Numbered from the stretch's first letter, positions 5,058 through 55,166 are shown. The stretch: 64,000 nucleotides of DNA from Rickettsiales bacterium (GCA_020630095.1 JAHDCD010000004.1:13580-77579); one strand, 5' to 3'. Numbers and translations are program-made. The notes: generated by a model from the letters alone, not told the origin.

Positions 5058-5621
5058 TTATACCTTTGGAAGGGTAACACCTTTTTGTTGCATATATTTA
5101 CCAGCTTTATCTGCGTATGAGGTTTCGCATGGTTGATCGCCCTTTAAGAATAAGAACTGACACACACCTTCATTAGCATAAATTTTGGCAGGAAGTGGCG
5201 TAGTATTTGAGAACTCTAGAGTTACATGACCTTCCCAATCTGGCTCAAGCGGGGTAACATTTACAATTATACCACAACGCGCATATGTAGACTTACCTAA
5301 ACAGATAGTTAAAACGTCACGCGGGATTTTAAAATATTCCGTAGTGCGAGCAAGTGCAAAGCTATTTGGTGGAATAATGCAAACGTCGCCCTTGAAATCT
5401 ACAAAACTATTTTCGGAAAAGTTTTTAGGGTCAACAGTTGCAGAGTGAACATTGGTGAAAATTTTAAACTCGTCAGCAACGCGGGCATCGTACCCGTAAG
5501 ATGACAAACCATACGATACTATTTTATTGCCATCGACCTCGCGGATATTGCCATCAACAAATGGTTCAATCATTGAGTGGTTTTGGGCTAAATCTCTTAT
5601 TGCTATATCGCTTAGTATCAT
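5058..5621 (-). CDS. dcd: dCTP deaminase
   Basis: 187 aa. [11 protein letters not shown]...EPF...SYGYD...[23 protein letters not shown] is the typical Dcd pattern. Confidence 0.93.
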
Positions 5622-5623
5622 CT

Positions 5624-5652
5624 TTTGTTTGTGTTTGTGTTTGTGTTTGTGT
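5624..5652. repeat. hexanucleotide microsatellite (TTTGTG)n, about 4.5 units, starting 3 nt upstream of the dcd start codon
   Basis: Read directly as tttgTTTGTGTTTGTGTTTGTGTTTGTGtag. On the dcd strand this is (CACAAA)n sitting where an RBS would be. Confidence 0.9.
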
Positions 5653-5670
5653 AGGTATCAAACTAAATTT

Positions 5671-6829: not shown

Positions 6830-7987
6830 ATGATTTACTTAGATTACAATGCAACCTGCCCTATATTGCCTGAAGTTAAACAGACTATGTTAAGTGCTAT
6901 GGATAGACCTTATAATGCATCTTCTGTGCATGCCTTGGGGCGCGAGGCGAAGAATATTATATCCAAAGCTAAAGATAATATTCGCGGTAAGCTTGGTAGT
7001 GAATCTGCTGAGATAATATTTACTGGAACATCTACTGAAGCATCTAACTTAGCGTTAAAAGGATTAGATAAAGTTAAAACCATTATAACTACCGAAGTTG
7101 AGCATAGCGCAGTACTTAATACTGTAAAATCATTTTATCATTGCGAGAAACAAAGTGACGAAGCAATCCAGAAATCTACCCAAGCGAATAAATCACTGGA
7201 TCGCTTCGCTAATGCTCGCGATGACAGGATATATATAATTCAAGTTGATTCAAATGGTATAACTAAACTAGATGAATTAGATAAAGCCTTGAGTAAGGCG
7301 GAAAGCCCTGCTTTGGTTAGCGTGCAATTAGCTAATAGTGAAACTGGAGTAATTCAGCCTATTAAAGAAGTAGTTAAAATTGCGCTTAAATATGGCGCGT
7401 ACATCCATTCTGATGCTACTGCGGCACTAGGTAAGGTTAATATAAACTTTGATGAGTTAGGCGTGGATATGATATCCGTAGCAGCGCATAAAATTGGTGG
7501 CCCACAAGGTGTTGGCGCACTTATCCATAAGAAGGGATTACATTTTAATGCGTTAATTCAAGGTGGCGGACAACAAGGTGGCTATAGAAGTGGCACAGAA
7601 AATATAGCTGGAATTGTTGGCTTTGCTAAAGCATGCGAGCTTATTGAAACTAAAGCATATAACAATATTTCTATATTGCGTGATGAGTTACAGTACACAT
7701 TAGAAACTAAGGGCTGGCAGGTATTTGGTAAAGAGTCTGAGCGCCTATGCAACACCTTGCTTGTTTCTGATGGTAAAACGCCCGCAGAAACCCAGCTTAT
7801 TAAAGCAGACTTAGCGGGCATTTGTATATCTGCAGGTTCGGCATGCTCAAGCGGTAAAGTTACTGAAAGTTATGTATTAAAGGCAATGGGAATAGATAAA
7901 ATAATAGCCGAAGGTGCTATTCGCCTTTCCTTAGGGGTTAATACTACAAAAAATGAAATTAAAACCTTTTTAACCAAGTTAACTTAA
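6830..7987 (+). CDS. cysteine desulfurase (NifS/IscS-type class V aminotransferase) carrying an in-frame palindromic-element insertion
   Basis: Contains the PLP-lysine context SVAAHKIGGPQGVGAL, the catalytic Cys loop SAGSACSSG and the N-terminus MIYLDYNATCP. Confidence 0.85.
   Translation: MIYLDYNATCPILPEVKQTMLSAMDRPYNASSVHALGREAKNIISKAKDNIRGKLGSESAEIIFTGTSTEASNLALKGLDKVKTIITTEVEHSAVLNTVKSFYHCEKQSDEAIQKSTQANKSLDRFANARDDRIYIIQVDSNGITKLDELDKALSKAESPALVSVQLANSETGVIQPIKEVVKIALKYGAYIHSDATAALGKVNINFDELGVDMISVAAHKIGGPQGVGALIHKKGLHFNALIQGGGQQGGYRSGTENIAGIVGFAKACELIETKAYNNISILRDELQYTLETKGWQVFGKESERLCNTLLVSDGKTPAETQLIKADLAGICISAGSACSSGKVTESYVLKAMGIDKIIAEGAIRLSLGVNTTKNEIKTFLTKLT
7139..7225. repeat. RPE-like palindromic element inserted in-frame in the cysteine desulfurase gene
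   Basis: CATTGCGAG..ACGAAGCAATCCAG...CTGGATCGCTTCG..CTCGCGATG has two nested inverted repeats with one mismatch each. It is translated as HCEKQSDEAIQKSTQANKSLDRFANARDDR. Confidence 0.75.
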
Positions 7988-8010
7988 TATTAACCTATCT
8001 GTTGTAATAT
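7979..8010 (+). promoter_or_regulatory. CtrA-type box TTAAC-N6-TTAAC + N10 + TAATAT, 7 nt before the ATG at 8018
   Basis: Reads gTTAACttaataTTAACctatctgttgTAATATttgaattATG. Confidence 0.55.
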
Positions 8011-8017
8011 TTGAATT

Positions 8018-8577: not shown

Positions 8578-8609
8578 TTAACTTTAAATTAACCTTTTGA
8601 AGATAAAAT
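8578..8609 (+). promoter_or_regulatory. CtrA-type box TTAAC-N6-TTAAC + N10 + TAAAAT, 6 nt before the ATG at 8616
   Basis: Reads gTTAACtttaaaTTAACcttttgaagaTAAAATttaactATG. Confidence 0.55.
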
Positions 8610-8615
8610 TTAACT

Positions 8616-10180: not shown

Positions 10181-10241
10181 ATTTATTTATATAGTAATAC
10201 GGCAATGTATTACAAGCTATTCGCAGTAATTTTAATAAAAA

Positions 10242-10273
10242 TTAACTAAAGTTTAAGAACTGAATAATATAAT
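10242..10273 (+). promoter_or_regulatory. CtrA-type box TTAAC-N6-TTAAG + N10 + TATAAT, 6 nt before ATT at 10280
   Basis: Reads aTTAACtaaagtTTAAGaactgaataaTATAATtttataATT. The layout is the same as the two downstream paralogue promoters. Confidence 0.5.
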
Positions 10274-10279
10274 TTTATA

Positions 10280-10963
10280 ATTACTGATAATAATAAAAAT
10301 ATACTCGGGCATAATATACCACCAAGTAAAAACGATAAAGAGGCAAGAGAGCTTTGGCGCTTTGGGGTTTCTTATCTTATAAAATCTATTTTACCTGAGA
10401 AAAAGCCCACACAGGCGGTTATAGCAGAAGACCTCGGGATTCCTTTATCAAAATATAGGCACTTACTTAGAGGGTATGGCGATACACCACAATTATTAGA
10501 TAAATTATTAGATAACTTTAATGTACCAGACAATGAGAGGCTTGAATTTTACAATAACTGTAATGAACTGGGTATTGTTACCAGTCAAAGCCTCTATAAA
10601 CAAGGTGCCTCAAGCTTAGGAGATTGCTTAAAGAAGATTAGACTGAAAGCCGGTTTGACTCAAGAAGAGCTTAGCGATGCATTGGATGTCGAAAGAGTTT
10701 TTCATAGCCATGTTGAAAGTGGTTATGAAGTTTATGACGCAACAACAACTGGCAAGCTTTTAGATTTTTGTAACGCAAGTGAGCTAGATAGGACCTTTAC
10801 TGAACAGCTTAGATCTGGAGATGTTGGATTTCAAAGAAACTCAGGAAAAAAACACCTTCCTAGTGATGCACAAATTAAAGCCGTAGAAATAGGCGCTGCA
10901 ATTGTTGAATCAATAGAGTATTTAGCCAATGAGTTAGATGCCCTACCCTCTAAAGAAAGGTAG
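10280..10963 (+). CDS. short multi-HTH protein, third member of the tandem family; no canonical start codon (ATT at the conserved start position), possibly a pseudogene
   Basis: The frame is open from 10268. The first ATG/GTG/TTG in frame is the TTG at 10655 (track ORF 10655-10963). The upstream part encodes HTH-like KPTQAVIAEDLGIPLSKYRHLLRG and LKKIRLKAGLTQEELSDAL. Confidence 0.45.
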   Translation: MTDNNKNILGHNIPPSKNDKEARELWRFGVSYLIKSILPEKKPTQAVIAEDLGIPLSKYRHLLRGYGDTPQLLDKLLDNFNVPDNERLEFYNNCNELGIVTSQSLYKQGASSLGDCLKKIRLKAGLTQEELSDALDVERVFHSHVESGYEVYDATTTGKLLDFCNASELDRTFTEQLRSGDVGFQRNSGKKHLPSDAQIKAVEIGAAIVESIEYLANELDALPSKER

Positions 10964-10992
10964 TTAAGTATCTATAGATAATTTAATAAAAA

Positions 10993-11024
10993 TTAACCAA
11001 ATCTTAAGAAATATGCTTTAAAAT
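10993..11024 (+). promoter_or_regulatory. CtrA-type box TTAAC-N6-TTAAG + N10 + TAAAAT, 6 nt before the ATG at 11031
   Basis: Reads aTTAACcaaatcTTAAGaaatatgcttTAAAATacccatATG. It is nearly identical to 13214-13251. Confidence 0.6.
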
Positions 11025-11030
11025 ACCCAT

Positions 11031-13208
11031 ATGGGACAAGATACAACATACGGCGGCCTATCCTTTGAAGAATATACCAATGGTTATGGAAGGGATAGCG
11101 GTCGAAAAATAGGGGCTGCTGGATTACCATTTGAATTTTCTGTATCTGGCTTTTTAAATCACTGGCTAGATTTAGAAGAAACCTCTGCAAGTGAGTTTTA
11201 TGCAATTCATAAACTGTCTGACTTTGAGGTGGATTATTCAGATTTTGAAAAATTAATATCTCCACCATCAAGAGAGAATGGCAGTTATTCGCTAGGTGAT
11301 AATTTACATATATATCTACAATCTGCATTACCTAAAAGTATGAAAGAGCATTCTTGGGCTTTAAGATATTCATCTCAGAAAGAAATTGATGCGATAGGAG
11401 CAGAGATTGTAGAGGCAGATATTAGCATTTTTGAACAAATTACAAAGGCTGATCCAAGAACTATATTAGCCCCTTATATAAAGCCAGCTGAAAGAGTTAA
11501 TGCACAGAATTACCCTTCTGAATTTTTAACAAAATTATTAAAAACCTTAAGAAAAGCTAATGATTTACAGGGCTCTTTGGGAGGAAGCTTTCCATTTGAA
11601 GAGATTGAATTCTTCAGAAAGGTAGATGATTTCTATCAGTTTCTTACTAAAGGCACAATCCCTGAAAAAAAAATGCTAAGTCTACTTGAATCAACGTATG
11701 ATTTAACAGACTCAGATATCAACTTTATTTCAGATGCTCTTACGGAGGCTGAGACTCAAGGCTATCCGAAAGATTTCTTTTCAAAAGAAATCGACAAAAT
11801 TATAGATCAGGTAAAAAATCAAGAGCAAGGCGAGGTTTTACAACTTAGCGATTATGAATTAATGAATAAATTTGCTAGAATAGTTGATGCTCCTATAGAA
11901 TGTTTATACGGGCTAAGGCCCTTAACATACTCTGATAAAACAAGGCAAATTAGTGCTATATGCGAAAAAATATCATCTTTTGCAGGTGAAGAGTTAGCGA
12001 ACTTAGCTGAAGAGCATTTTCAAAGTATTGAAGGCATTGATATTGAAAGACTCATTGAAATTAAAGAGGAATCTGGAGTTACAGGTAGAAAGCTACTTGG
12101 TTATGCGCTTAGTTTAATTCGGTTGTCTGAAGGGATGACTCAGGCTGAACTTGGCGATAAGGCTGACTTAAGGCCGCAGAAAGTTTCCTCTATGGAAATA
12201 CATACTAGAACCAGTATAAAAAATAGCTCAACTAGAGCGCAAAAACCCTCTCAGATAGAAGCATATCTTGACGGGTGTAATACTGATAAAAAGTTTAGAG
12301 GCATAATAGAAAGAATATGTAAAAAATATGATATTGATACAGTTAAAAACTTAACTGATAGAATTTATAAAACAGATAATGTGAATGAAGCCGTATATTT
12401 ACTTACAAAATTATATGAAACTTCACTGACAGCTATTGATAGGAAAGCCCGTAAACTAGACCCTGATTGTATTACATATGTTAAAATAAAAAACAAAAAA
12501 ACTCAATTAAAGCCTAAAGAAGTTAGACTTACATTAGGTATATTAGAAGTTAAAGCTGAACATAGGCAGCATTTTGAGGGGCTTATAAACCTTACTAATT
12601 TACTTGAGGCAGAAACTGAACTTGGCAGCGCTTTGAGAATAGTTAGAGAAAGTTACGACTTAACTACCACTGATATTAAAAATCGCCTAGGTGTTACTAG
12701 ACAGGCGGTCAATAATGCTGAAATAAAAGGCTGTAAGGCATCTACTGCAATGAATTATCTAAACGCTTGTGGGGCTACTAGAGATGTACGCTATATGGTT
12801 GCCGTTACAAGTGAGCATGCCGAATTTATACCAGAATTACTATATGAGGTAGTTAACAGGGTCTCAATTGACATAATGGATACTGATAATAACTTATCTG
12901 CTAGAGCTATAGTGGCTGATAATATGGGTATAAGCGTAAAAGAATTTAATAGCATACTATCCTACGAAACAAAACCCAATAAAACTGAAATTAGGGAGTT
13001 GTGCAAGTTAACTAGAGATAATTTAGCCAATTACCTTACCGATAAAGATTCAACCTATTTAGAAAATTCAATTGATAAAACTCGTACAAATAAAATAACA
13101 AAATCTGGAGCGTATAAGGAGCGCACCATTAGGCACCCTTCTGTAAATACTAAAGCGGATCATTGGCGGACTCTTAGCGGTCCTACTAAAATGTCTAAAA
13201 TTACTTAA
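11031..13208 (+). CDS. large multi-HTH (XRE-like repeat) protein, paralogue A (725 aa)
   Basis: At least three HTH-like modules: GRKLLGYALSLIRLSEGMTQAELG, LRIVRESYDLTTTDIKNRLGVTRQAVNNAE and ARAIVADNMGISVKEFNSIL. It shares blocks with 13252-15450. Confidence 0.7.
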   Translation: MGQDTTYGGLSFEEYTNGYGRDSGRKIGAAGLPFEFSVSGFLNHWLDLEETSASEFYAIHKLSDFEVDYSDFEKLISPPSRENGSYSLGDNLHIYLQSALPKSMKEHSWALRYSSQKEIDAIGAEIVEADISIFEQITKADPRTILAPYIKPAERVNAQNYPSEFLTKLLKTLRKANDLQGSLGGSFPFEEIEFFRKVDDFYQFLTKGTIPEKKMLSLLESTYDLTDSDINFISDALTEAETQGYPKDFFSKEIDKIIDQVKNQEQGEVLQLSDYELMNKFARIVDAPIECLYGLRPLTYSDKTRQISAICEKISSFAGEELANLAEEHFQSIEGIDIERLIEIKEESGVTGRKLLGYALSLIRLSEGMTQAELGDKADLRPQKVSSMEIHTRTSIKNSSTRAQKPSQIEAYLDGCNTDKKFRGIIERICKKYDIDTVKNLTDRIYKTDNVNEAVYLLTKLYETSLTAIDRKARKLDPDCITYVKIKNKKTQLKPKEVRLTLGILEVKAEHRQHFEGLINLTNLLEAETELGSALRIVRESYDLTTTDIKNRLGVTRQAVNNAEIKGCKASTAMNYLNACGATRDVRYMVAVTSEHAEFIPELLYEVVNRVSIDIMDTDNNLSARAIVADNMGISVKEFNSILSYETKPNKTEIRELCKLTRDNLANYLTDKDSTYLENSIDKTRTNKITKSGAYKERTIRHPSVNTKADHWRTLSGPTKMSKIT

Positions 13209-13213
13209 TAAAA

Positions 13214-13245
13214 TTAACCAAACCTTAAGAAATATGCTTTAAAAT
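13214..13245 (+). promoter_or_regulatory. CtrA-type box TTAAC-N6-TTAAG + N10 + TAAAAT, 6 nt before the ATG at 13252
   Basis: Reads aTTAACcaaaccTTAAGaaatatgcttTAAAATacccatATG. Confidence 0.6.
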
Positions 13246-13251
13246 ACCCAT

Positions 13252-15450
13252 ATGGGACACGGGCCTAAATATGGAGGATTATCATTTGATGATTATACCA
13301 ATGGTTATGGAAGGGATAGCGGTCGAAAAATAGGGGCTGCTGGATTACCATTTGAATTTTCTGTATCTGGCTTTTTAAAATATTGGCTTGAACAAGAAGA
13401 AATATCCGTAAAAGATTTCTATACGGGGCATAAATTATCTAACTTTGGGGTTGATTATCAAAGTTTTAAAAGTTTAGTTTATCCCCCCTCAGCAGATAAA
13501 GGTGAATTTGCACTAGGCGAAAAGTTGCGAGTATATATACAGTCTATTTTACCTAAAAAGATGGCAAATTACGTTTGGGTTTTAAGACACTCTGCTTATA
13601 ATGAAAATAGCTCAGGTATGGCACAGGTGGTTGAGGCTAAAATAGAAATATTAGACTCCATTGTAAAAAAAGATCCTAAAGATTTAAAAGCTCCAAACTT
13701 AAAATCTGCAAAAAGAATCTCTACTAAAAATTACCCATCAGAGTTTTTATCAAAATTATTGGAAGCCTTAAGAAAGGCTAATCATATGCAAGGCTCAATA
13801 GGTGATATTTTTCCATTTGAGGAAGTTGAGTTTTATAGAAAAATAGATGATTTATATCAATTCTTAACTCAAGGGTCAATATCAGCCGATCAAATGCTAG
13901 ATTTTCTTGAAGCTGACCATACACTTTTAGATTCTGATATATTATTTATATCTAAAGCTTTAGTTGAAGCTGAAAAGCAAGGCTATCCAACAGATTTCTT
14001 TAGCAAGTCTATCGATGTGGTAATAGAGCGTGAAAAGAGTAAAGAGTGCGGTGGTACAGCTAAGCAGTATAGTGATTATGAATTAATGAGTAAATTTGCA
14101 AAGCTAGTAAACTGCCCATTAGAAAGCCTTTATGGGTTAAAGCCCCTTACTCAAGTTAGAATCACTGAACAAATTAACCATATTTGTGAAAGAATAGCAA
14201 CTTTTGCCGACCCCAAATTAGCCGTTTTGGCAAAATCACATTTTGAATCAATAGAAGGTATTGATATTCCTCGCTTAGTTGAAATTAAAGAGGAATCTGG
14301 AGTTACAGGTAGAAAGCTTCTTGGCTATGCGTTGAGCTTGATAAGATTATCAGAGGGGGTGAGTCAAACGGATGTTAGTGCAAAGATGGGAGTAAGTCAA
14401 AGAGCTGTTAGTGCCATGGAGTACTTTGAAAGCTTTAGGGTTAGTGGTGTTCATAGAAAAAATCAAAAACCGTCAGAAATAGAAAATTACTTAGATGCGT
14501 GTGATGCTGATAAAAGTGCTAGGAAAACCATTGATAGAATTTGCAAAAAATATGACATCGATACAGTACAAAAGCTAGAAGGCAATTTTAATGCCTCTAA
14601 AACAACTTTAGAAGCCATTGTTAATTTAATAAAATTACATGAAGTTCCTTTTAAAGTTCTGGGAAGGGAAATTAAACAAAAAGGATTAAAGTGTGAGGCT
14701 TCAGTTGAATTTTTAAAAAAAAAATCTCAACCACTGACTGAGTCTGATACAAAGATAATAATGGACACTCTTGGTGCAACTGCAGAAGAAAGAGAAATAG
14801 TCGAGGGTGTAATTCAAGAAAATAGCATGACAGCCTTACTTCAAAATGCAACTCATAGCGGTGAGGCACTAAAGATAGTGCGAGAAGGACTTGATTTAAC
14901 CGGTGAACAACTTGCTAAATTATGTGGCATTTCTAGGCGAACTATACAAAACCAAGAAGCTACTCCAGAAGTTAGCTCTATAAATATAATTAAGAGACTT
15001 AATGTATGCGAAGTTTCTCCAGAAGTTAGATATTATGTAGCCTTAGCAAGCTCTAGAGTTGAGTTACTACCTGAAATACTTTATGAGGTAGTTAACAGGG
15101 TCTCAATTGACATAATGGATACTGATAATAACTTATCTGCTAGAGCTATAGTGGCTGATAATATGGGTATAAGCGTAAAAGAATTTAATAGCATACTATC
15201 CTACGAAACAAAACCCAATAAAACTGAAATTAGGGAGTTGTGCAATCTTGTAAAAGAGTCTTTATCTGCTCATTTAACTGAAAGAGAAGTTGTATTTATA
15301 GATTCTTCTTTAGACGCTCTATACATAGATACTTTAAAGAAAGATGGCACGAGAAGAGAAAGAAAGATATCCATTCCCTCACCAGCTGCTAAAGCGGATC
15401 ATTGGGAAAACTTATCATGCCCTGTAAATATTAATTATTTGGGTGAATAA
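13252..15450 (+). CDS. large multi-HTH (XRE-like repeat) protein, paralogue B (732 aa)
   Basis: Collinear with paralogue A and carrying nucleotide-identical blocks. HTH-like modules include LIRLSEGVSQTDVSAKMGVSQRAVSAME and LKIVREGLDLTGEQLAKLCGISRRTIQNQE. Confidence 0.7.
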   Translation: MGHGPKYGGLSFDDYTNGYGRDSGRKIGAAGLPFEFSVSGFLKYWLEQEEISVKDFYTGHKLSNFGVDYQSFKSLVYPPSADKGEFALGEKLRVYIQSILPKKMANYVWVLRHSAYNENSSGMAQVVEAKIEILDSIVKKDPKDLKAPNLKSAKRISTKNYPSEFLSKLLEALRKANHMQGSIGDIFPFEEVEFYRKIDDLYQFLTQGSISADQMLDFLEADHTLLDSDILFISKALVEAEKQGYPTDFFSKSIDVVIEREKSKECGGTAKQYSDYELMSKFAKLVNCPLESLYGLKPLTQVRITEQINHICERIATFADPKLAVLAKSHFESIEGIDIPRLVEIKEESGVTGRKLLGYALSLIRLSEGVSQTDVSAKMGVSQRAVSAMEYFESFRVSGVHRKNQKPSEIENYLDACDADKSARKTIDRICKKYDIDTVQKLEGNFNASKTTLEAIVNLIKLHEVPFKVLGREIKQKGLKCEASVEFLKKKSQPLTESDTKIIMDTLGATAEEREIVEGVIQENSMTALLQNATHSGEALKIVREGLDLTGEQLAKLCGISRRTIQNQEATPEVSSINIIKRLNVCEVSPEVRYYVALASSRVELLPEILYEVVNRVSIDIMDTDNNLSARAIVADNMGISVKEFNSILSYETKPNKTEIRELCNLVKESLSAHLTEREVVFIDSSLDALYIDTLKKDGTRRERKISIPSPAAKADHWENLSCPVNINYLGE

Positions 15451-23364: not shown

Positions 23365-23964
23365 ATGCTAGGTAAGCGTTTAATAAAAGTGGCTATGATT
23401 GCCATGTTGTCAATTTCTTTGAGTTCGTGTTATTTAATCACGACCTCTAAACCCTCAAACATAGATCATATATGTACGATATTTAAGGAGCGTCCGCATT
23501 GGCAACGCGCAGTATTTAAGGCATCTAATCGCTGGAATGTGCCTGTGCCGATGATAATGTCTATCATTTATCAAGAAAGTTCGTTTAGGCGCTACGCACA
23601 GCCTACTCAATATTTATTGCTTGGTAGTATTCCTATGCTTGGCTCGTCTGGCGCGCTAGGCTTTTCTCAGGCGATTGGTATAACGTGGAAGGAATATGTT
23701 TCTGAAACTTCAAATGACTTTGCAATGCGTACATCTTTTGATGATTCAGTAGATTTCATTGGGTGGTACGTTGATAAATCTGCTAGGCTAATAGATATTG
23801 CACGTACTGATGCGTTTGGTCATTACCTTGCTTACCACGAAGGACGTACAGGCTATAAGCGTAAAACTTATAATTCAAAGTCTAAGAAATGGCTGTTAGG
23901 CGCAGCTAAAAAAGTGCGCAACAGAACTGCAAACTATAAAAAACAATTATTGGATTGTTATTAA
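23365..23964 (+). CDS. lipoprotein with SLT/transglycosylase-like motif
   Basis: The signal peptide has a lipobox (LSLSSC). SIIYQESSFRRYA resembles the SLT catalytic ES motif. Confidence 0.5.
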   Translation: MLGKRLIKVAMIAMLSISLSSCYLITTSKPSNIDHICTIFKERPHWQRAVFKASNRWNVPVPMIMSIIYQESSFRRYAQPTQYLLLGSIPMLGSSGALGFSQAIGITWKEYVSETSNDFAMRTSFDDSVDFIGWYVDKSARLIDIARTDAFGHYLAYHEGRTGYKRKTYNSKSKKWLLGAAKKVRNRTANYKKQLLDCY

Positions 23965-23992
23965 CTTTCTATTAACCTTATTAGACTAGAAT
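23961..23992 (+). promoter_or_regulatory. CtrA-type box TTAAC-N6-TTAAC + N10 + TAGAAT, 9 nt before the ATG at 24002
   Basis: Reads TTAACtttctaTTAACcttattagacTAGAATcataaatatATG. Confidence 0.55.
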
Positions 23993-24001
23993 CATAAATA
24001 T

Positions 24002-25996: not shown

Positions 25997-26028
25997 TTAA
26001 CTTTATATTAACACCAAGCTTATATTAT
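25997..26028 (+). promoter_or_regulatory. CtrA-type box TTAAC-N6-TTAAC + N10 + TATTAT, 7 nt before the ATG at 26036
   Basis: Reads gTTAACtttataTTAACaccaagcttaTATTATatagctaATG. Confidence 0.55.
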
Positions 26029-26035
26029 ATAGCTA

Positions 26036-26392
26036 ATGGCTAATATTAAAAATAACTATCCCAGCTTTTATAACTTGGTTGAAGCTATTTTATTTAGTTC
26101 TTATCAAGAAGGCGATGAAGAACTTCAAGGATCTGGTGAGGTTGTACAGTTTATTGAAAACTACTGGAGTCTTAATCATGTATATTATCATGAGCCGTTA
26201 AAGAATATTAGAGAATCATGGGAAAAACCATTTAATAGTGATTCTATACCTATTGAAATAAATGTTGAAAGCTGGCTAAAACTAGTTGCATTCCCAACTT
26301 TGTTTTTAAATGGTGAATTAAGTGAATTTGATGATCCTGATAATGATATTAACATCTCGATAGCACTGCTAGAAGCTAGCAGTTTTTTTTAA
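26036..26392 (+). CDS. hypothetical protein, upstream part of a gene split at a T8A7 tract
   Basis: The 118-codon ORF ends in ...agtTTTTTTTTAAAAAAAgtt. The -1 frame stays open to 27105. Confidence 0.5.
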   Translation: MANIKNNYPSFYNLVEAILFSSYQEGDEELQGSGEVVQFIENYWSLNHVYYHEPLKNIRESWEKPFNSDSIPIEINVESWLKLVAFPTLFLNGELSEFDDPDNDINISIALLEASSFF

Positions 26393-27105
26393 AAAAAGTT
26401 TTTGAAACTGGGGCTACAAATGAGGCCATTTCTGAGATATTACAATCTAACTTCTCAGAGTTAGTAGAAAATATCCCTGATAGAGCGCTTACTATAGCTT
26501 ATGATAGAGAGGATAGACGAAGCGTTTCTAGGCGAATCAAATTTGGACTATCCCATGGAAACTCAGATGACTCAATTGTAGATGGGCATAATACCGTAGA
26601 GAAAATGGACTATGAGCGACATACAGAAATCACTGAGTTTATATATGAACGATACCCTAATGTTTCTAAGGATATAGATGCTATAGTTGAAAGCCTTCTT
26701 GATTATCCGGGGTATATTGGGAAAGACTTCTCAAGTCATGGACCTGAAGAATTATTAGAGGAAGCCTTAATGCTACATTTTGCAACAGATGGCGATCAAA
26801 CTAAGCTACCTTTTTTATTTAATCATTCACAGATAACACATACTAAACCAAAATTAGAAAGTTTAGATCTTGCTTTATATGACTTATTTGAAAACTTTAT
26901 GGCGATTACAAAGACCGATGTAATTGCAATTATTTCTCAAATAAGCCTATTAGGAATTGAACAAGACTTTGGTGATATACCAAGTATTCCTATAGATATT
27001 GATTCTATTGATTTTTCAAAAGAAAGTGAACCTAAGCCAGTTGTTCAAGATATAACAAAATACGATGCTATCGCTGAATATCTTGGTAAACAGCAAGGCG
27101 GGTAA
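26380..27105 (+). CDS. hypothetical protein, downstream part (open from 26380; first ATG at 26605)
   Basis: The frame is open for 75 codons upstream of the annotated ATG with no start codon. It would fuse to 26036-26392 by a -1 shift in the homopolymer tract. Confidence 0.45.
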   Translation, partial: QFFLKKVFETGATNEAISEILQSNFSELVENIPDRALTIAYDREDRRSVSRRIKFGLSHGNSDDSIVDGHNTVEKMDYERHTEITEFIYERYPNVSKDIDAIVESLLDYPGYIGKDFSSHGPEELLEEALMLHFATDGDQTKLPFLFNHSQITHTKPKLESLDLALYDLFENFMAITKTDVIAIISQISLLGIEQDFGDIPSIPIDIDSIDFSKESEPKPVVQDITKYDAIAEYLGKQQGG

Positions 27106-54052: not shown

Positions 54053-54133
54053 AATGTATATATTGATAAATTACCTTGCTTTTCAATGTATATATTGATA
54101 TAGTAAGTCATAAACTCAATTTATATATTGATT
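54053..54133 (+). promoter_or_regulatory. three direct copies of a 16 bp motif (AATGTATATATTGATA) spaced 32-33 bp apart; the last abuts the ATG at 54134
   Basis: The copies lie at 54053-54068, 54085-54100 and 54118-54133. The third reads AATTTATATATTGATT. Confidence 0.65.
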
Positions 54134-54589
54134 ATGGGTAAGTTTAATAAATTACAATTAGAGTCTTTAGATAAGCAAATTAAGCAAGCTAATTGCCCTA
54201 GAACACCTAATGGCGGTTGGTTAAAGGCAATTCGTACAGCTCTTAAAATGCCATTATCTGCGGTAGCTTCAAGAATAGGAGTTAGCTCGCAGGCTGTATC
54301 TCAAGCAGAAAAACTTGAAGATCAAGGCTCAATATCTATTTCTCAACTAAATAAGATAGCTAACGCTATGGGCTTTGAACTACATTATGCTCTAAAGCCT
54401 ATAGATAATAAATCTATAAATGATGTTATTAAGGCTCAAGCTATGGTTAAAGCAAAGCAGATTGTCGATAAGGTTGATATTACCATGACTATTGAAGATC
54501 AAAAAGTAACATCTTCAAAGCAATCTATTGAGCAGTTAGCTAACGAATTAGCAGATAATCTTAACAGCAAATTATGGCAAGATGATTAA
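54134..54589 (+). CDS. HTH XRE-type protein ('mobile mystery protein A'-like)
   Basis: LKAIRTALKMPLSAVASRIGVSSQAVSQAEK is an HTH. The gene is paired with a Fic gene and overlaps it by 8 nt. The start was set at the ATG (54134) rather than the track TTG at 54128. Confidence 0.7.
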   Translation: MGKFNKLQLESLDKQIKQANCPRTPNGGWLKAIRTALKMPLSAVASRIGVSSQAVSQAEKLEDQGSISISQLNKIANAMGFELHYALKPIDNKSINDVIKAQAMVKAKQIVDKVDITMTIEDQKVTSSKQSIEQLANELADNLNSKLWQDD

Positions 54590-55166
54590 GTATTTCTACC
54601 CTGAAGGAGCAACTCCGATTGATGAACAAGAGAAGCTAGCTCTAATACCTATTCTTTCAAATATGGAAGAGCTTAACCTTTGGGAGCAAGAAAACATTAT
54701 CGAAGCTTATACATGGCTTAGCCGAGCTAGACTTCAGAACACCGATATCTTTACTGAAAAGTTCATTTGCAATCTACATAAACGAATGTTTAGCCGCACT
54801 TGGAAATGGGCTGGCGAATATCGTAAAACAAACAAGAATATTGGTTGTGAGTTTCATTTAGTACCTATTGAACTTAATTATCTATTAGAAGATGCTAAGT
54901 TTTGGCTTGATAATTCAACTTATACTATTCATCAACTTGCTTTGGCTTTCCACCATAGGCTTGTTAAAATCCATCTATTCCCCAATGGCAATGGAAGGCA
55001 TGCAAGGCTTATGGCAGATTGTATAGCTAAAAAATTAGGGGCAGAATATCTTAATTGGGGTTGGGATATGCAAGCAGATAATGACTATCGTAAATTATAC
55101 ATATCAGCATTGAAAGAAGCTGATTATGGTGATTACACGTCTTTATTTAAAATATTCAAAGTTTAA
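54582..55166 (+). CDS. Fic-domain protein ('mobile mystery protein B'-like)
   Basis: Carries the Fic motif HLFPNGNGRHARL. Confidence 0.85.
   Translation: MIKYFYPEGATPIDEQEKLALIPILSNMEELNLWEQENIIEAYTWLSRARLQNTDIFTEKFICNLHKRMFSRTWKWAGEYRKTNKNIGCEFHLVPIELNYLLEDAKFWLDNSTYTIHQLALAFHHRLVKIHLFPNGNGRHARLMADCIAKKLGAEYLNWGWDMQADNDYRKLYISALKEADYGDYTSLFKIFKV

What the first reader, a model, noticed from the sequence alone, without database searches (positions are those of the whole stretch)
10268..10963. First member of the multi-HTH family has ATT where its paralogues have ATG, and 125 open codons lacking any canonical start
The frame is open from 10268 to 10963. The first ATG/GTG/TTG in frame is the TTG at 10655, which is why the track shows only a 102 aa ORF. 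The upstream 375 nt encode plausible HTH modules. The promoter (box, perfect TATAAT, 6 nt spacer) points exactly at codon ATT 10280-10282, the position occupied by ATG in the two downstream paralogues. Either this is a start-codon-mutated pseudogene whose reading frame has not yet decayed, or it is translated from a non-canonical ATT start on a leaderless mRNA. The latter would be mechanistically interesting, because leaderless initiation is normally strongly ATG-dependent.
Basis: seen in the sequence. Interest (0 to 1): 0.55.

Follow-up and report, generated by a model that had tools for sequence, protein, structure and literature searches.

The report
HTH regulator gene starting with ATT
A small DNA-binding regulator gene in an unusual alphaproteobacterium has ATT at the spot where six sister promoters place the ATG of a leaderless message, so it is either a very young start-codon-loss pseudogene or a rare AUU-initiated leaderless gene, and sequence alone cannot decide.

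Summary
The frame is open from 10268 to 10963, and the first ATG/GTG/TTG is the TTG at 10655. That TTG is the Leu of 'AGLTQEEL' inside an XRE helix-turn-helix domain. The 102-aa ORF, which is also the public gene call, matches no Pfam family. Adding 13 upstream residues restores HTH_31 above its threshold. The upstream 125 codons have coding-type codon usage and encode a second HTH module.

Seven promoters in the window share TTAA-N7-TTAA[C/G]-N10-TAnnnT (8 matches against 0.13 expected), which is a CtrA-box-like layout. Six of them have ATG 6-9 nt after the -10 with no Shine-Dalgarno sequence. Gene A has ATT at exactly that offset.

The host is a lone, AT-rich alphaproteobacterium. Neither A nor its neighbours B and C have homologues beyond generic HTH modules in about 1.8 billion protein representatives, in GTDB genomes or in JGI metagenomes, so no ATG-versus-ATT comparison is possible.

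My best reading is a recent G-to-T loss of a 5'-terminal AUG, giving a young pseudogene or a severe hypomorph (about 0.5). Functional AUU or AUA initiation is about 0.3. A base-call error or a genuine 102-aa product is each unlikely.

The parts
10232..10259 (+). Conserved upstream box TTAATAAAAATTAACTAAAGTTTAAGAA. It holds three TTAA half-sites at about 10-11 nt spacing and is shared with genes B and C.
   Evidence: the box matches at 10232 and 10983 with 0.00 matches expected. Searches show the C copy, which has a 1-nt shorter A-run.
10242..10257 (+). CtrA-box-like element TTAA-N7-TTAAG. It differs by one base from the CtrA consensus TTAA-N7-TTAAC and lies 10 nt upstream of the -10 hexamer.
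   Evidence: TTAA-N7-TTAAS-N10-TAnnnT gives 8 matches against 0.13 expected. The consensus is taken from PMC7200025.
10268..10273 (+). Perfect -10 hexamer TATAAT, at the class-conserved distance from the box. It predicts a transcription start at or next to 10280.
10276..10281 (+). Second TATAAT, 17 nt downstream of TTAAGA (10253-10258). This is an alternative sigma-70-like promoter found only in A. Its transcription start would be about 10287-10289 and would leave ATT out of the mRNA.
   Evidence: 10 of 12 consensus matches.
10265..10267 (+). In-frame TAA that closes the frame upstream.
10280..10282 (+). ATT codon at the position held by ATG in the sister promoters (6 nt after the -10).
10280..10963 (+). 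Full-length reading frame of gene A: 227 codons plus TAG, encoding a two-module XRE-family HTH protein.
10337..10567 (+). HTH module 1, about residues 20-96. It is degenerate but recognisable as XRE-type.
   Evidence: HTH_31 E=0.0055 at residues 44-89. BLASTP against P0004 gives E=8e-6 over residues 14-125. P0002 and P0003 align from residue 36; helices predicted at 20-37, 45-52, 56-67, 70-79 and 84-96, but at low confidence.
10604..10786 (+). HTH module 2, residues 109-169. It is a canonical XRE HTH that begins 13-17 residues upstream of the TTG.
   Evidence: HTH_31 E=7.7e-11 at residues 113-169; residues 109-167 align to PDB 7t8i from its residue 1; all generic metagenome hits start at residues 108-113.
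10655..10657 (+). TTG, the first canonical start codon in frame. It is in fact the internal Leu126 of 'AGLTQEEL' and the start of the public 102-aa gene call.
   Evidence: (P0001).
10983..11033 (+). Gene B promoter and start: box, TAAAAT 11019-11024, 6 nt, then ATG 11031, with no SD.
13205..13254 (+). Gene C promoter and start: box with a 1-nt shorter A-run, TAAAAT 13240-13245, 6 nt, then ATG 13252, with no SD.

Best explanation
Gene A (10280-10963) is a real lineage-specific gene for a 227-residue regulator with two XRE-type helix-turn-helix modules. It sits behind a promoter of a local class: a CtrA-box-like TTAA-N7-TTAA[C/G], then 10 nt, then a -10 hexamer, then 6-9 nt, then the start codon. 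In that class the transcript is predicted to begin at or within a few nt of the A of the start codon (leaderless or nearly so, with no Shine-Dalgarno).

In A the 5'-terminal codon reads ATT instead of ATG. The most likely history is a single recent G-to-T change at 10282 that removed the only usable start. The gene is probably still transcribed but is translated not at all or only at a small residual level. That makes it a very young pseudogene or a severe hypomorph whose frame has not had time to decay.

Shown here: the open frame, the coding character and HTH content of the upstream part, the fact that TTG 10655 is internal, and the promoter class and its geometry. Inferred: the transcription start, the leaderless status, CtrA dependence, the direction and age of the mutation, and the translational consequence.
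For: 1. The TTG at 10655 lies inside the HTH domain. The 102-aa ORF has no Pfam hit, but adding 13 residues gives HTH_31 at 28.4 bits against a cut-off of 27. PDB 7t8i aligns from A residue 109.

2. The upstream 125 codons look like coding sequence. Codon-usage log-odds are +0.24 per codon in frame and -0.27 and -0.79 out of frame, within the range seen for 125-codon pieces of real genes (minimum 0.18). They match HTH modules of multi-HTH proteins (P0002 at 2.5e-21 over residues 36-186; E=8e-6 over residues 14-125).

3. The promoter class gives 8 matches against 0.13 expected. Six of the seven promoters have ATG 6, 6, 6, 7, 7 or 9 nt after the -10, and A has ATT at 6. Only 5 of 44 genes in the window have an SD.

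4. No other start is available. No ATG, GTG or TTG occurs in frame before 10655, and an in-frame TAA lies at 10265.

5. Leaderless initiation depends strongly on AUG. In Caulobacter reporters AUU 'drastically decreased' output, and only 17 of 385 natural leaderless mRNAs use a non-AUG start (GUG/UUG/CUG class) (PMC8459731).

6. ATT is one substitution from ATG, in the GC-to-AT direction expected for a 36% GC genome.

7. An intact frame fits a young lesion. A nonsense hit reaches 50% probability at only about 1.9% neutral substitutions per site, before counting indels.
Against: - The frame is fully intact over 227 codons, in sequence where about 5% of all substitutions would create a stop.
- The promoter is intact, and its -10 (TATAAT) is better than those of B and C.
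- The 5' end is unstructured, as a working leaderless mRNA requires.
- AUU is a proven bacterial initiation codon (infC and pcnB in E. coli; my own knowledge).
- Start loss is a rare route to pseudogenisation compared with frameshifts and nonsense mutations.
- No orthologue exists to show that the ancestor had ATG.
- No transcript or protein data are available.
Confidence: 0.5

Rival explanations
1. The gene is functional and initiates at a non-canonical codon. The full-length 227-aa protein would be made from the 5'-terminal AUU of a leaderless mRNA. Alternatively it would be made from AUA 10301 or 10316 on a short-leader mRNA driven by the second promoter, TTAAGA-17-TATAAT 10276-10281. Output would be low and possibly sensitive to IF3, which could suit a regulator.
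For: - The ORF and both HTH modules are intact.
- The -10 is perfect and the box is conserved.
- The 5' end is unstructured and A/U-rich.
- The organism rarely uses SD (5 of 44 genes), so start selection here is already atypical.
- AUU, AUC and AUA occur as start codons of leadered mRNAs in Caulobacter (PMC8459731).
- Mammalian mitochondria initiate leaderless mRNAs at AUU and AUA.
- An alternative sigma-70-like promoter exists in A only.
Against: - No natural bacterial leaderless mRNA with AUU is reported in the Caulobacter set: 17 of 385 are non-AUG, and those named are GUG, UUG and CUG.
- AUU reporters are drastically reduced.
- In E. coli the 5'-terminal AUG itself is the recognition element for leaderless mRNA (cited).
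- There is no SD or other recruiting element ahead of ATA 10301 or 10316.
- No conservation evidence is available.
- Six of the seven sister promoters keep ATG.
Confidence: 0.3
2. Base-call or assembly error. The true codon would be ATG, and the gene would be an ordinary member of the leaderless promoter class.
For: - A single base (T10282 in place of G) would make A conform to all six sister promoters.
- The window holds one suspicious 1-nt frameshift inside a T8A7 homopolymer run (26383-26397), so the assembly may not be error-free.
- The record is a draft contig of 158,780 bp.
Against: - Substitution errors in consensus assemblies are much rarer than homopolymer indels.
- Only one candidate indel was seen among about 45 genes, so overall quality is good.
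- The position is not in a homopolymer.
- No read data are available for a check.
Confidence: 0.07
3. The annotated 102-aa protein starting at TTG 10655 is the real product, and the upstream open frame is a relic.
For: It is the only ORF with a canonical start, and it is the call in the public record (P0001).
Against: - The TTG is the conserved Leu in the helix 1-helix 2 turn of an XRE HTH.
- The 102-aa product loses helix 1 and matches no Pfam family.
- There is no SD or promoter ahead of 10655.
- The upstream frame is open and coding-like at p of about 1e-4.
Confidence: 0.05

Closest known systems
Leaderless mRNAs of Alphaproteobacteria (Caulobacter crescentus: 375-385 leaderless mRNAs; PMC4117421, PMC8459731)
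   Same: The host is an alphaproteobacterium. The -10 lies 6-7 nt ahead of the start codon, there is no SD, the 5' coding end is unstructured, and SD use is low genome-wide.
   Different: A has ATT rather than AUG at the predicted 5' end. In Caulobacter AUU is not among the natural leaderless start codons named, and it is crippling in reporters. No transcription-start data exist for this organism, so leaderless status here is predicted from geometry only.
Leaderless repressor genes of the XRE/cI type (phage lambda cI transcribed from PRM; my own knowledge)
   Same: An XRE-type HTH regulator is translated from an mRNA that begins at its start codon, giving low, tunable expression.
   Different: Lambda cI has a 5'-terminal AUG. 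A has two HTH modules, is chromosomal, and sits next to two 725-732-aa multi-HTH genes. No operator or autoregulation has been demonstrated.
AUU-initiated bacterial genes (E. coli infC and pcnB; my own knowledge)
   Same: AUU stands in place of AUG, giving low initiation that is discriminated by IF3.
   Different: Those mRNAs have a leader and an SD, and the AUU of infC is conserved across species and used for autoregulation. A has no SD, is predicted to be leaderless, and has no orthologues that could show conservation.
CtrA-activated promoters (consensus TTAA-N7-TTAAC; PMC7200025)
   Same: Four promoters in the window carry perfect TTAA-N7-TTAAC boxes 10 nt upstream of the -10. A, B and C carry TTAA-N7-TTAAG at the same position.
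   Different: A, B and C have G instead of C at the last position and add a third upstream TTAA half-site. CtrA binding is untested and ctrA itself is not in the window. The box could instead be the operator of the A, B or C proteins.
Tandem multi-XRE-HTH proteins (P0002-P0005)
   Same: The HTH modules are repeated with similar linkers. The P0004 repeat 'L..NLNIP..EINKFLDYD...AKTLG..L' parallels A's 'LLDNFNVPDNERLEFYNN...ASSLGDCL'.
   Different: Identity is only 28-33%. Those proteins have 5-10 modules against two in A, and they are not orthologues.
Mitochondrial leaderless mRNAs starting with AUU or AUA (summarised in PMC8459731)
   Same: A 5'-terminal AUU or AUA is used as the initiation codon on leaderless mRNAs, in an organelle of alphaproteobacterial ancestry.
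   Different: That system relies on a specialised mitoribosome and a modified tRNA-Met (my own knowledge). Nothing suggests the same for this bacterium.

Membership tests
XRE-family helix-turn-helix proteins (Pfam HTH_31 / HTH_3) | A domain match above the Pfam gathering threshold. | tested here: met
   HTH_31 42.6 bits (cut-off 27) and HTH_3 29.2 bits (cut-off 23), at residues 113-169; aligns to the PDB XRE regulators 7t8i and 2b5a.
XRE-family helix-turn-helix proteins (Pfam HTH_31 / HTH_3) | A complete five-helix domain, including helix 1, is encoded by the expressed ORF. | tested here: inconclusive
   The domain is complete only if translation starts upstream of 10616. The canonical-start 102-aa ORF lacks helix 1 and has no Pfam hit.
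Leaderless mRNA genes | [quoted passage not shown] | not testable with these tools
   The geometry fits: the -10 hexamer ends 6 nt before the codon, as in B, C and g8616. Confirmation needs 5' end mapping.
Leaderless mRNA genes | No Shine-Dalgarno sequence or 5' UTR. | tested here: met
   There is no GGAG, GAGG or AGGA upstream, and the -10 hexamer occupies the place where an SD would lie.
Leaderless mRNA genes | A 5'-terminal AUG (or GUG in some lineages). | tested here: not met
   The codon at 10280-10282 is ATT.
CtrA-regulated promoters | A TTAA-N7-TTAAC box overlapping the -35 region. | tested here: inconclusive
   A has TTAA-N7-TTAAG at 10242-10257, one mismatch from consensus. Perfect boxes sit at the same distance from the -10 in g8018, g8616, g24002 and g26036.
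CtrA-regulated promoters | CtrA binding, or CtrA-dependent expression. | not testable with these tools
   No ChIP or expression data exist, and ctrA was not found among the ORFs tested.
Genes with a conserved AUU start (infC type) | AUU conserved among orthologues. | not testable with these tools
   No orthologue was found in 1.84 billion protein representatives, GTDB genomes or JGI metagenomes.
Genes with a conserved AUU start (infC type) | An SD-led initiation region that recruits the 30S subunit to the weak codon. | tested here: not met
   There is no SD upstream of 10280, 10301 or 10316.
Pseudogene | Loss of a feature needed for expression (here the start codon). | tested here: met
   There is no canonical start for the domain-complete ORF.
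Pseudogene | Decay of the reading frame (stops or frameshifts), or relaxed constraint compared with orthologues. | tested here: not met
   The frame is intact and its codon usage is gene-like. dN/dS cannot be computed because no orthologues exist.
B/C 'multi-HTH' paralogue family of this locus | Collinear protein homology with B and C. | tested here: not met
   Only one HTH module aligns with B (E=8e-5), and nothing significant aligns with C. Only the promoter box is shared.

The most novel reading that the evidence does not exclude
A natural bacterial mRNA that is leaderless and is nonetheless translated from a 5'-terminal AUU. It would produce a low, possibly IF3-gated dose of the first regulator in a CtrA-box-controlled array of three HTH genes. 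That would be a bacterial counterpart of the AUU/AUA-initiated leaderless mRNAs of mitochondria, found in a deep-branching alphaproteobacterium.
Probability: 0.27. Interest if true: 0.65.

Novelty: new member of a known kind. Interest (0 to 1): 0.36.

Why it matters
If the ATT is translated, it would be the first natural bacterial leaderless mRNA with an AUU start. That would challenge the view that a 5'-terminal AUG is the recognition element for 70S leaderless initiation. The case is directly testable with three reporter variants.

If it is not translated, three practical points remain:
- The public 102-aa gene call is a truncation artefact that cuts an HTH domain.
- Start-codon loss in a leaderless gene cannot be rescued by nearby alternative starts, so such alleles look like 'open frames without a start'.
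- This uncultured-looking alphaproteobacterial lineage has a clear CtrA-box promoter class that drives leaderless orphan genes. That is useful for annotating its genome and for studying CtrA regulons outside the model species.

Tried and rejected
- The word-indexed protein search with A found nothing.
- The full HMMER scan of 1.84 billion representatives found only the self 102-aa call plus generic or tandem XRE proteins.
- The B/C profile found nothing in GTDB genomes or in metagenomes.
- B has only itself in the 5.8-billion-sequence database.
- A against metagenomes gave only generic XRE hits through the 'KAGLTQEE' pattern.

**Exact-product look-ups of the source contig failed** for B, for the 102-aa ORF and for P0001.

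**Alternative public gene calls were not found.** Exact-sequence look-ups of M-initiated versions starting at 10277, 10280, 10301 and 10316 are not in the collection.

**P0034**, a 47-aa protein clustered with C, turned out to be an unrelated GC-rich clustering artefact.

**AlphaFold without an alignment** gave pLDDT 48.5. That is too low to use for anything beyond a helix count, so I ran no fold search.

**Rejected ideas:**
- Rescue by a frameshift from an upstream ATG. Reading the sequence shows no ATG in any frame between 10208 and about 10474, and the other two frames are full of stops.
- Readthrough from the small upstream ORF at 10205. Two in-frame stops intervene, and that ORF lies upstream of the promoter.
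- An SD-led internal start behind the AAAGAGG at 10337-10343. No in-frame start or near-cognate codon follows it, and the nearby TTG at 10354 is out of frame with a 14-codon ORF.
- The gapped MAFFT alignment of the three promoters. It hides the fact that an ungapped alignment from the box puts ATT directly on ATG.

**PADLOC** gave only generic HTH matches.

Full report
**1. The observation**

Reading the sequence and translating it confirm the finding.
- An in-frame TAA lies at 10265-10267, and the frame is then open to the TAG at 10961-10963.
- The first ATG, GTG or TTG in frame is the TTG at 10655. This is why the mechanical ORF list shows only a 102-aa ORF.
- That leaves 129 start-less codons counted from the stop, or 125 counted from ATT 10280.
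- The only near-cognate codons early enough to encode the whole first domain are ATA 10277, ATT 10280, ATA 10301 and ATA 10316.

The open frame is not chance. At this base composition the probability of no stop in 125-129 codons is 3e-5 to 1e-4, and 1 of 20000 shuffles stays open. Of the 62 open frames of at least 120 codons in the window, this one has the longest start-less lead. The next two have separate explanations: a phage-type chaperone frameshift frame, and a frameshift inside a T8A7 run.

**2. What the frame encodes**

*The TTG is internal to a domain.* Numbered from ATT 10280, Pfam HTH_31 matches residues 113-169 (E=7.7e-11), and HTH_3 begins at residue 117. The TTG is residue 126, the Leu of 'AGLTQEEL'.
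- The 102-aa ORF alone matches no Pfam family.
- Adding 13 upstream residues gives HTH_31 at 28.4 bits, above the cut-off of 27.
- The PDB XRE regulator 7t8i aligns from its own residue 1 to A residue 109.
- All generic XRE hits from metagenomes start at A residues 108-113.

*The upstream part is real coding sequence.* The upstream 125 residues give a weak HTH_31 match on their own (E=0.0055). They align over residues 14-125 with a repeat unit of the tandem-HTH protein P0004 (E=8e-6). The full HMMER scan of 1.84 billion representatives places P0002 and P0003 across residues 36-186, straight through the TTG. Codon usage is gene-like in this frame only: +0.24 per codon against -0.27 and -0.79 in the other frames. 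Single-sequence AlphaFold was too uncertain to use (pLDDT 48.5).

The gene is therefore a two-module XRE-type regulator of about 227 residues. The public call (P0001, 102 aa, source NCBI, contig of 158,780 bp) is a truncation artefact.

**3. The promoter**

The 28-nt box at 10232-10259 recurs at 10983-11010 ahead of gene B, with 0.00 matches expected by chance. Gene C carries it with a 1-nt shorter A-run.

Counted without gaps from the box:
- TATAAT 10268-10273 in A corresponds to TAAAAT 11019-11024 in B.
- Six nt further on, ATT 10280 in A corresponds to ATG 11031 in B.

MAFFT's gapped alignment obscures this correspondence.

Printing all gene starts revealed a wider class with the layout TTAA-N7-TTAA[C/G], 10 nt, TAnnnT. 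It gives 8 matches against 0.13 expected. These are seven promoters, all on the + strand. The table lists them by the last base of the -10 hexamer.

| -10 ends at | Gap to start codon (nt) | Start codon |
|---|---|---|
| 8010 | 7 | ATG |
| 8609 | 6 | ATG |
| 10273 (gene A) | 6 | ATT |
| 11024 (gene B) | 6 | ATG |
| 13245 (gene C) | 6 | ATG |
| 23992 | 9 | ATG |
| 26028 | 7 | ATG |

By my own arithmetic, the chance that six of seven have an ATG in a 4-nt window is about 1e-6. None of these genes has an SD, and only 5 of 44 genes in the window do.

TTAA-N7-TTAAC is the CtrA consensus (PMC7200025). GyrB is at most 61% identical to any GTDB species representative, and all the best hits are Alphaproteobacteria. 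So the host is a deep, AT-rich (36% GC) alphaproteobacterium. That fits a CtrA regulon, and it fits the abundance of leaderless mRNAs known from Caulobacter and Sinorhizobium (PMC4117421).

A, B and C carry TTAA-N7-TTAAG plus a third upstream TTAA half-site. They may be CtrA targets, or the box may be the operator of their own HTH products. Both are inferences.

A also has a second TATAAT (10276-10281), 17 nt from TTAAGA. If that promoter were used, the transcript would start near 10288 and would not contain ATT. The conserved class spacing argues for the first -10.

**4. Can ATG versus ATT be settled by comparison?**

No. A, B and C have no homologues beyond generic HTH modules in any resource searched. 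Even GyrB is a singleton at 90% identity. A is also not a collinear paralogue of B and C. One HTH module matches B (E=8e-5) and nothing significant matches C.

**5. Weighing the explanations**

*For recent start loss:*
- ATT is one GC-to-AT substitution from the ATG that every sister promoter has.
- A leaderless mRNA has no fallback start.
- In Caulobacter reporters AUU 'drastically decreased' leaderless translation. Only 17 of 385 natural leaderless mRNAs use a non-AUG start, and those named are GUG, UUG and CUG (PMC8459731).
- An intact frame is compatible with a young lesion. A nonsense hit becomes 50% likely at only about 1.9% neutral divergence, and sooner once indels are counted.

*For function:*
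- The frame, both HTH modules, the box and a perfect -10 are all intact.
- The 5' end is unstructured.
- AUU is a proven initiation codon in bacteria (my own knowledge: infC, pcnB).
- Start loss is a rare way to make a pseudogene.

I estimate the following:
- Recent start loss (pseudogene or severe hypomorph): about 0.5.
- Functional AUU or AUA initiation: about 0.3.
- Base-call error: about 0.07. One T8A7 frameshift elsewhere in the window shows that the assembly or the genome is not flawless.
- A genuine 102-aa product: about 0.05.

**6. Comparison with what is known**

The locus works like the leaderless XRE/cI-type repressor genes and like alphaproteobacterial leaderless mRNAs. It fails one defining feature of that class, the 5'-terminal AUG. 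It resembles infC-type AUU genes only in the codon, since it has no SD and no demonstrable conservation. Mitochondrial leaderless AUU/AUA initiation is an analogy, not evidence.

**7. Verdict**

The feature is most likely an ordinary, very young start-codon lesion in an orphan regulator gene. The by-product is of moderate interest: a CtrA-box promoter class with predicted leaderless genes in a lone alphaproteobacterial lineage. The AUU-initiation reading is not excluded, and it could be tested cheaply.

Noticed in passing
window 7959-8017, 8578-8615, 23961-24001, 25997-26035 (plus 10242, 10993, 13214): A promoter class TTAA-N7-TTAA[C/G]-N10-TAnnnT gives 8 hits against 0.13 expected. Four members have perfect CtrA-consensus boxes. 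Each is followed 6-9 nt later by an ATG that opens an orphan gene with no Pfam family and no SD. This looks like a CtrA-type regulon of predicted leaderless, lineage-specific genes.
   Followed up: partly
window 26036-27105 (+), junction at 26383-26397: The ORF 26036-26392 (118 aa) and the start-less open frame 26380-27105 join through a 1-nt shift inside a T8A7 homopolymer run. This is probably one gene of about 356 aa. The shift could be a real frameshift (pseudogene or phase variation), transcriptional or translational slippage, or an assembly error.
   Followed up: partly
window 58812-58038 (-) and 58066-55163 (-): A phage- or GTA-like tail module. It includes a tail assembly chaperone (PF23812) whose downstream frame has 100 start-less codons and follows a slippery 'G GAA AAA AAC TAG', the classic G/GT programmed -1 frameshift. 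A tape-measure protein (PF10145) comes immediately after it.
   Followed up: partly
window 11031-13208 and 13252-15450 (+): Genes B and C (725 and 732 aa, multi-HTH) are 53% identical overall. They contain blocks of 100% identity (B residues 604-658, and the promoter together with the first two codons, ATG GGA), which points to ongoing gene conversion. They have no homologues in any database searched.
   Followed up: partly
window 54128-55166 (+): A gene for 'mobile mystery protein B' (Fic-domain, TIGR02613), preceded by an overlapping ORF of 153 aa that I did not scan. It lies beside the tail module.
   Followed up: no
window about 5622-5669: An (ACAAAC)n microsatellite fills the divergent intergenic region between dcd (5058-5621, - strand) and the ORF at 5670. 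That ORF's TTG start is followed by a GC-rich palindrome (ATTCCCGCGCAGGCGGGAA), so its annotated start is doubtful.
   Followed up: no
whole window: Only 5 of 44 long ORFs have a GGAG, GAGG or AGGA motif within 25 nt upstream. These sit mostly at internal operon junctions such as 34672, 39886 and 40419. SD-independent initiation seems to be the rule in this organism.
   Followed up: partly
protein cluster of gene C, locus L001: The 90% identity cluster that holds protein C is represented by an unrelated 47-aa GC-rich metagenome peptide (P0034). This is a database clustering artefact, and it explains why C does not appear in word-indexed searches.
   Followed up: yes
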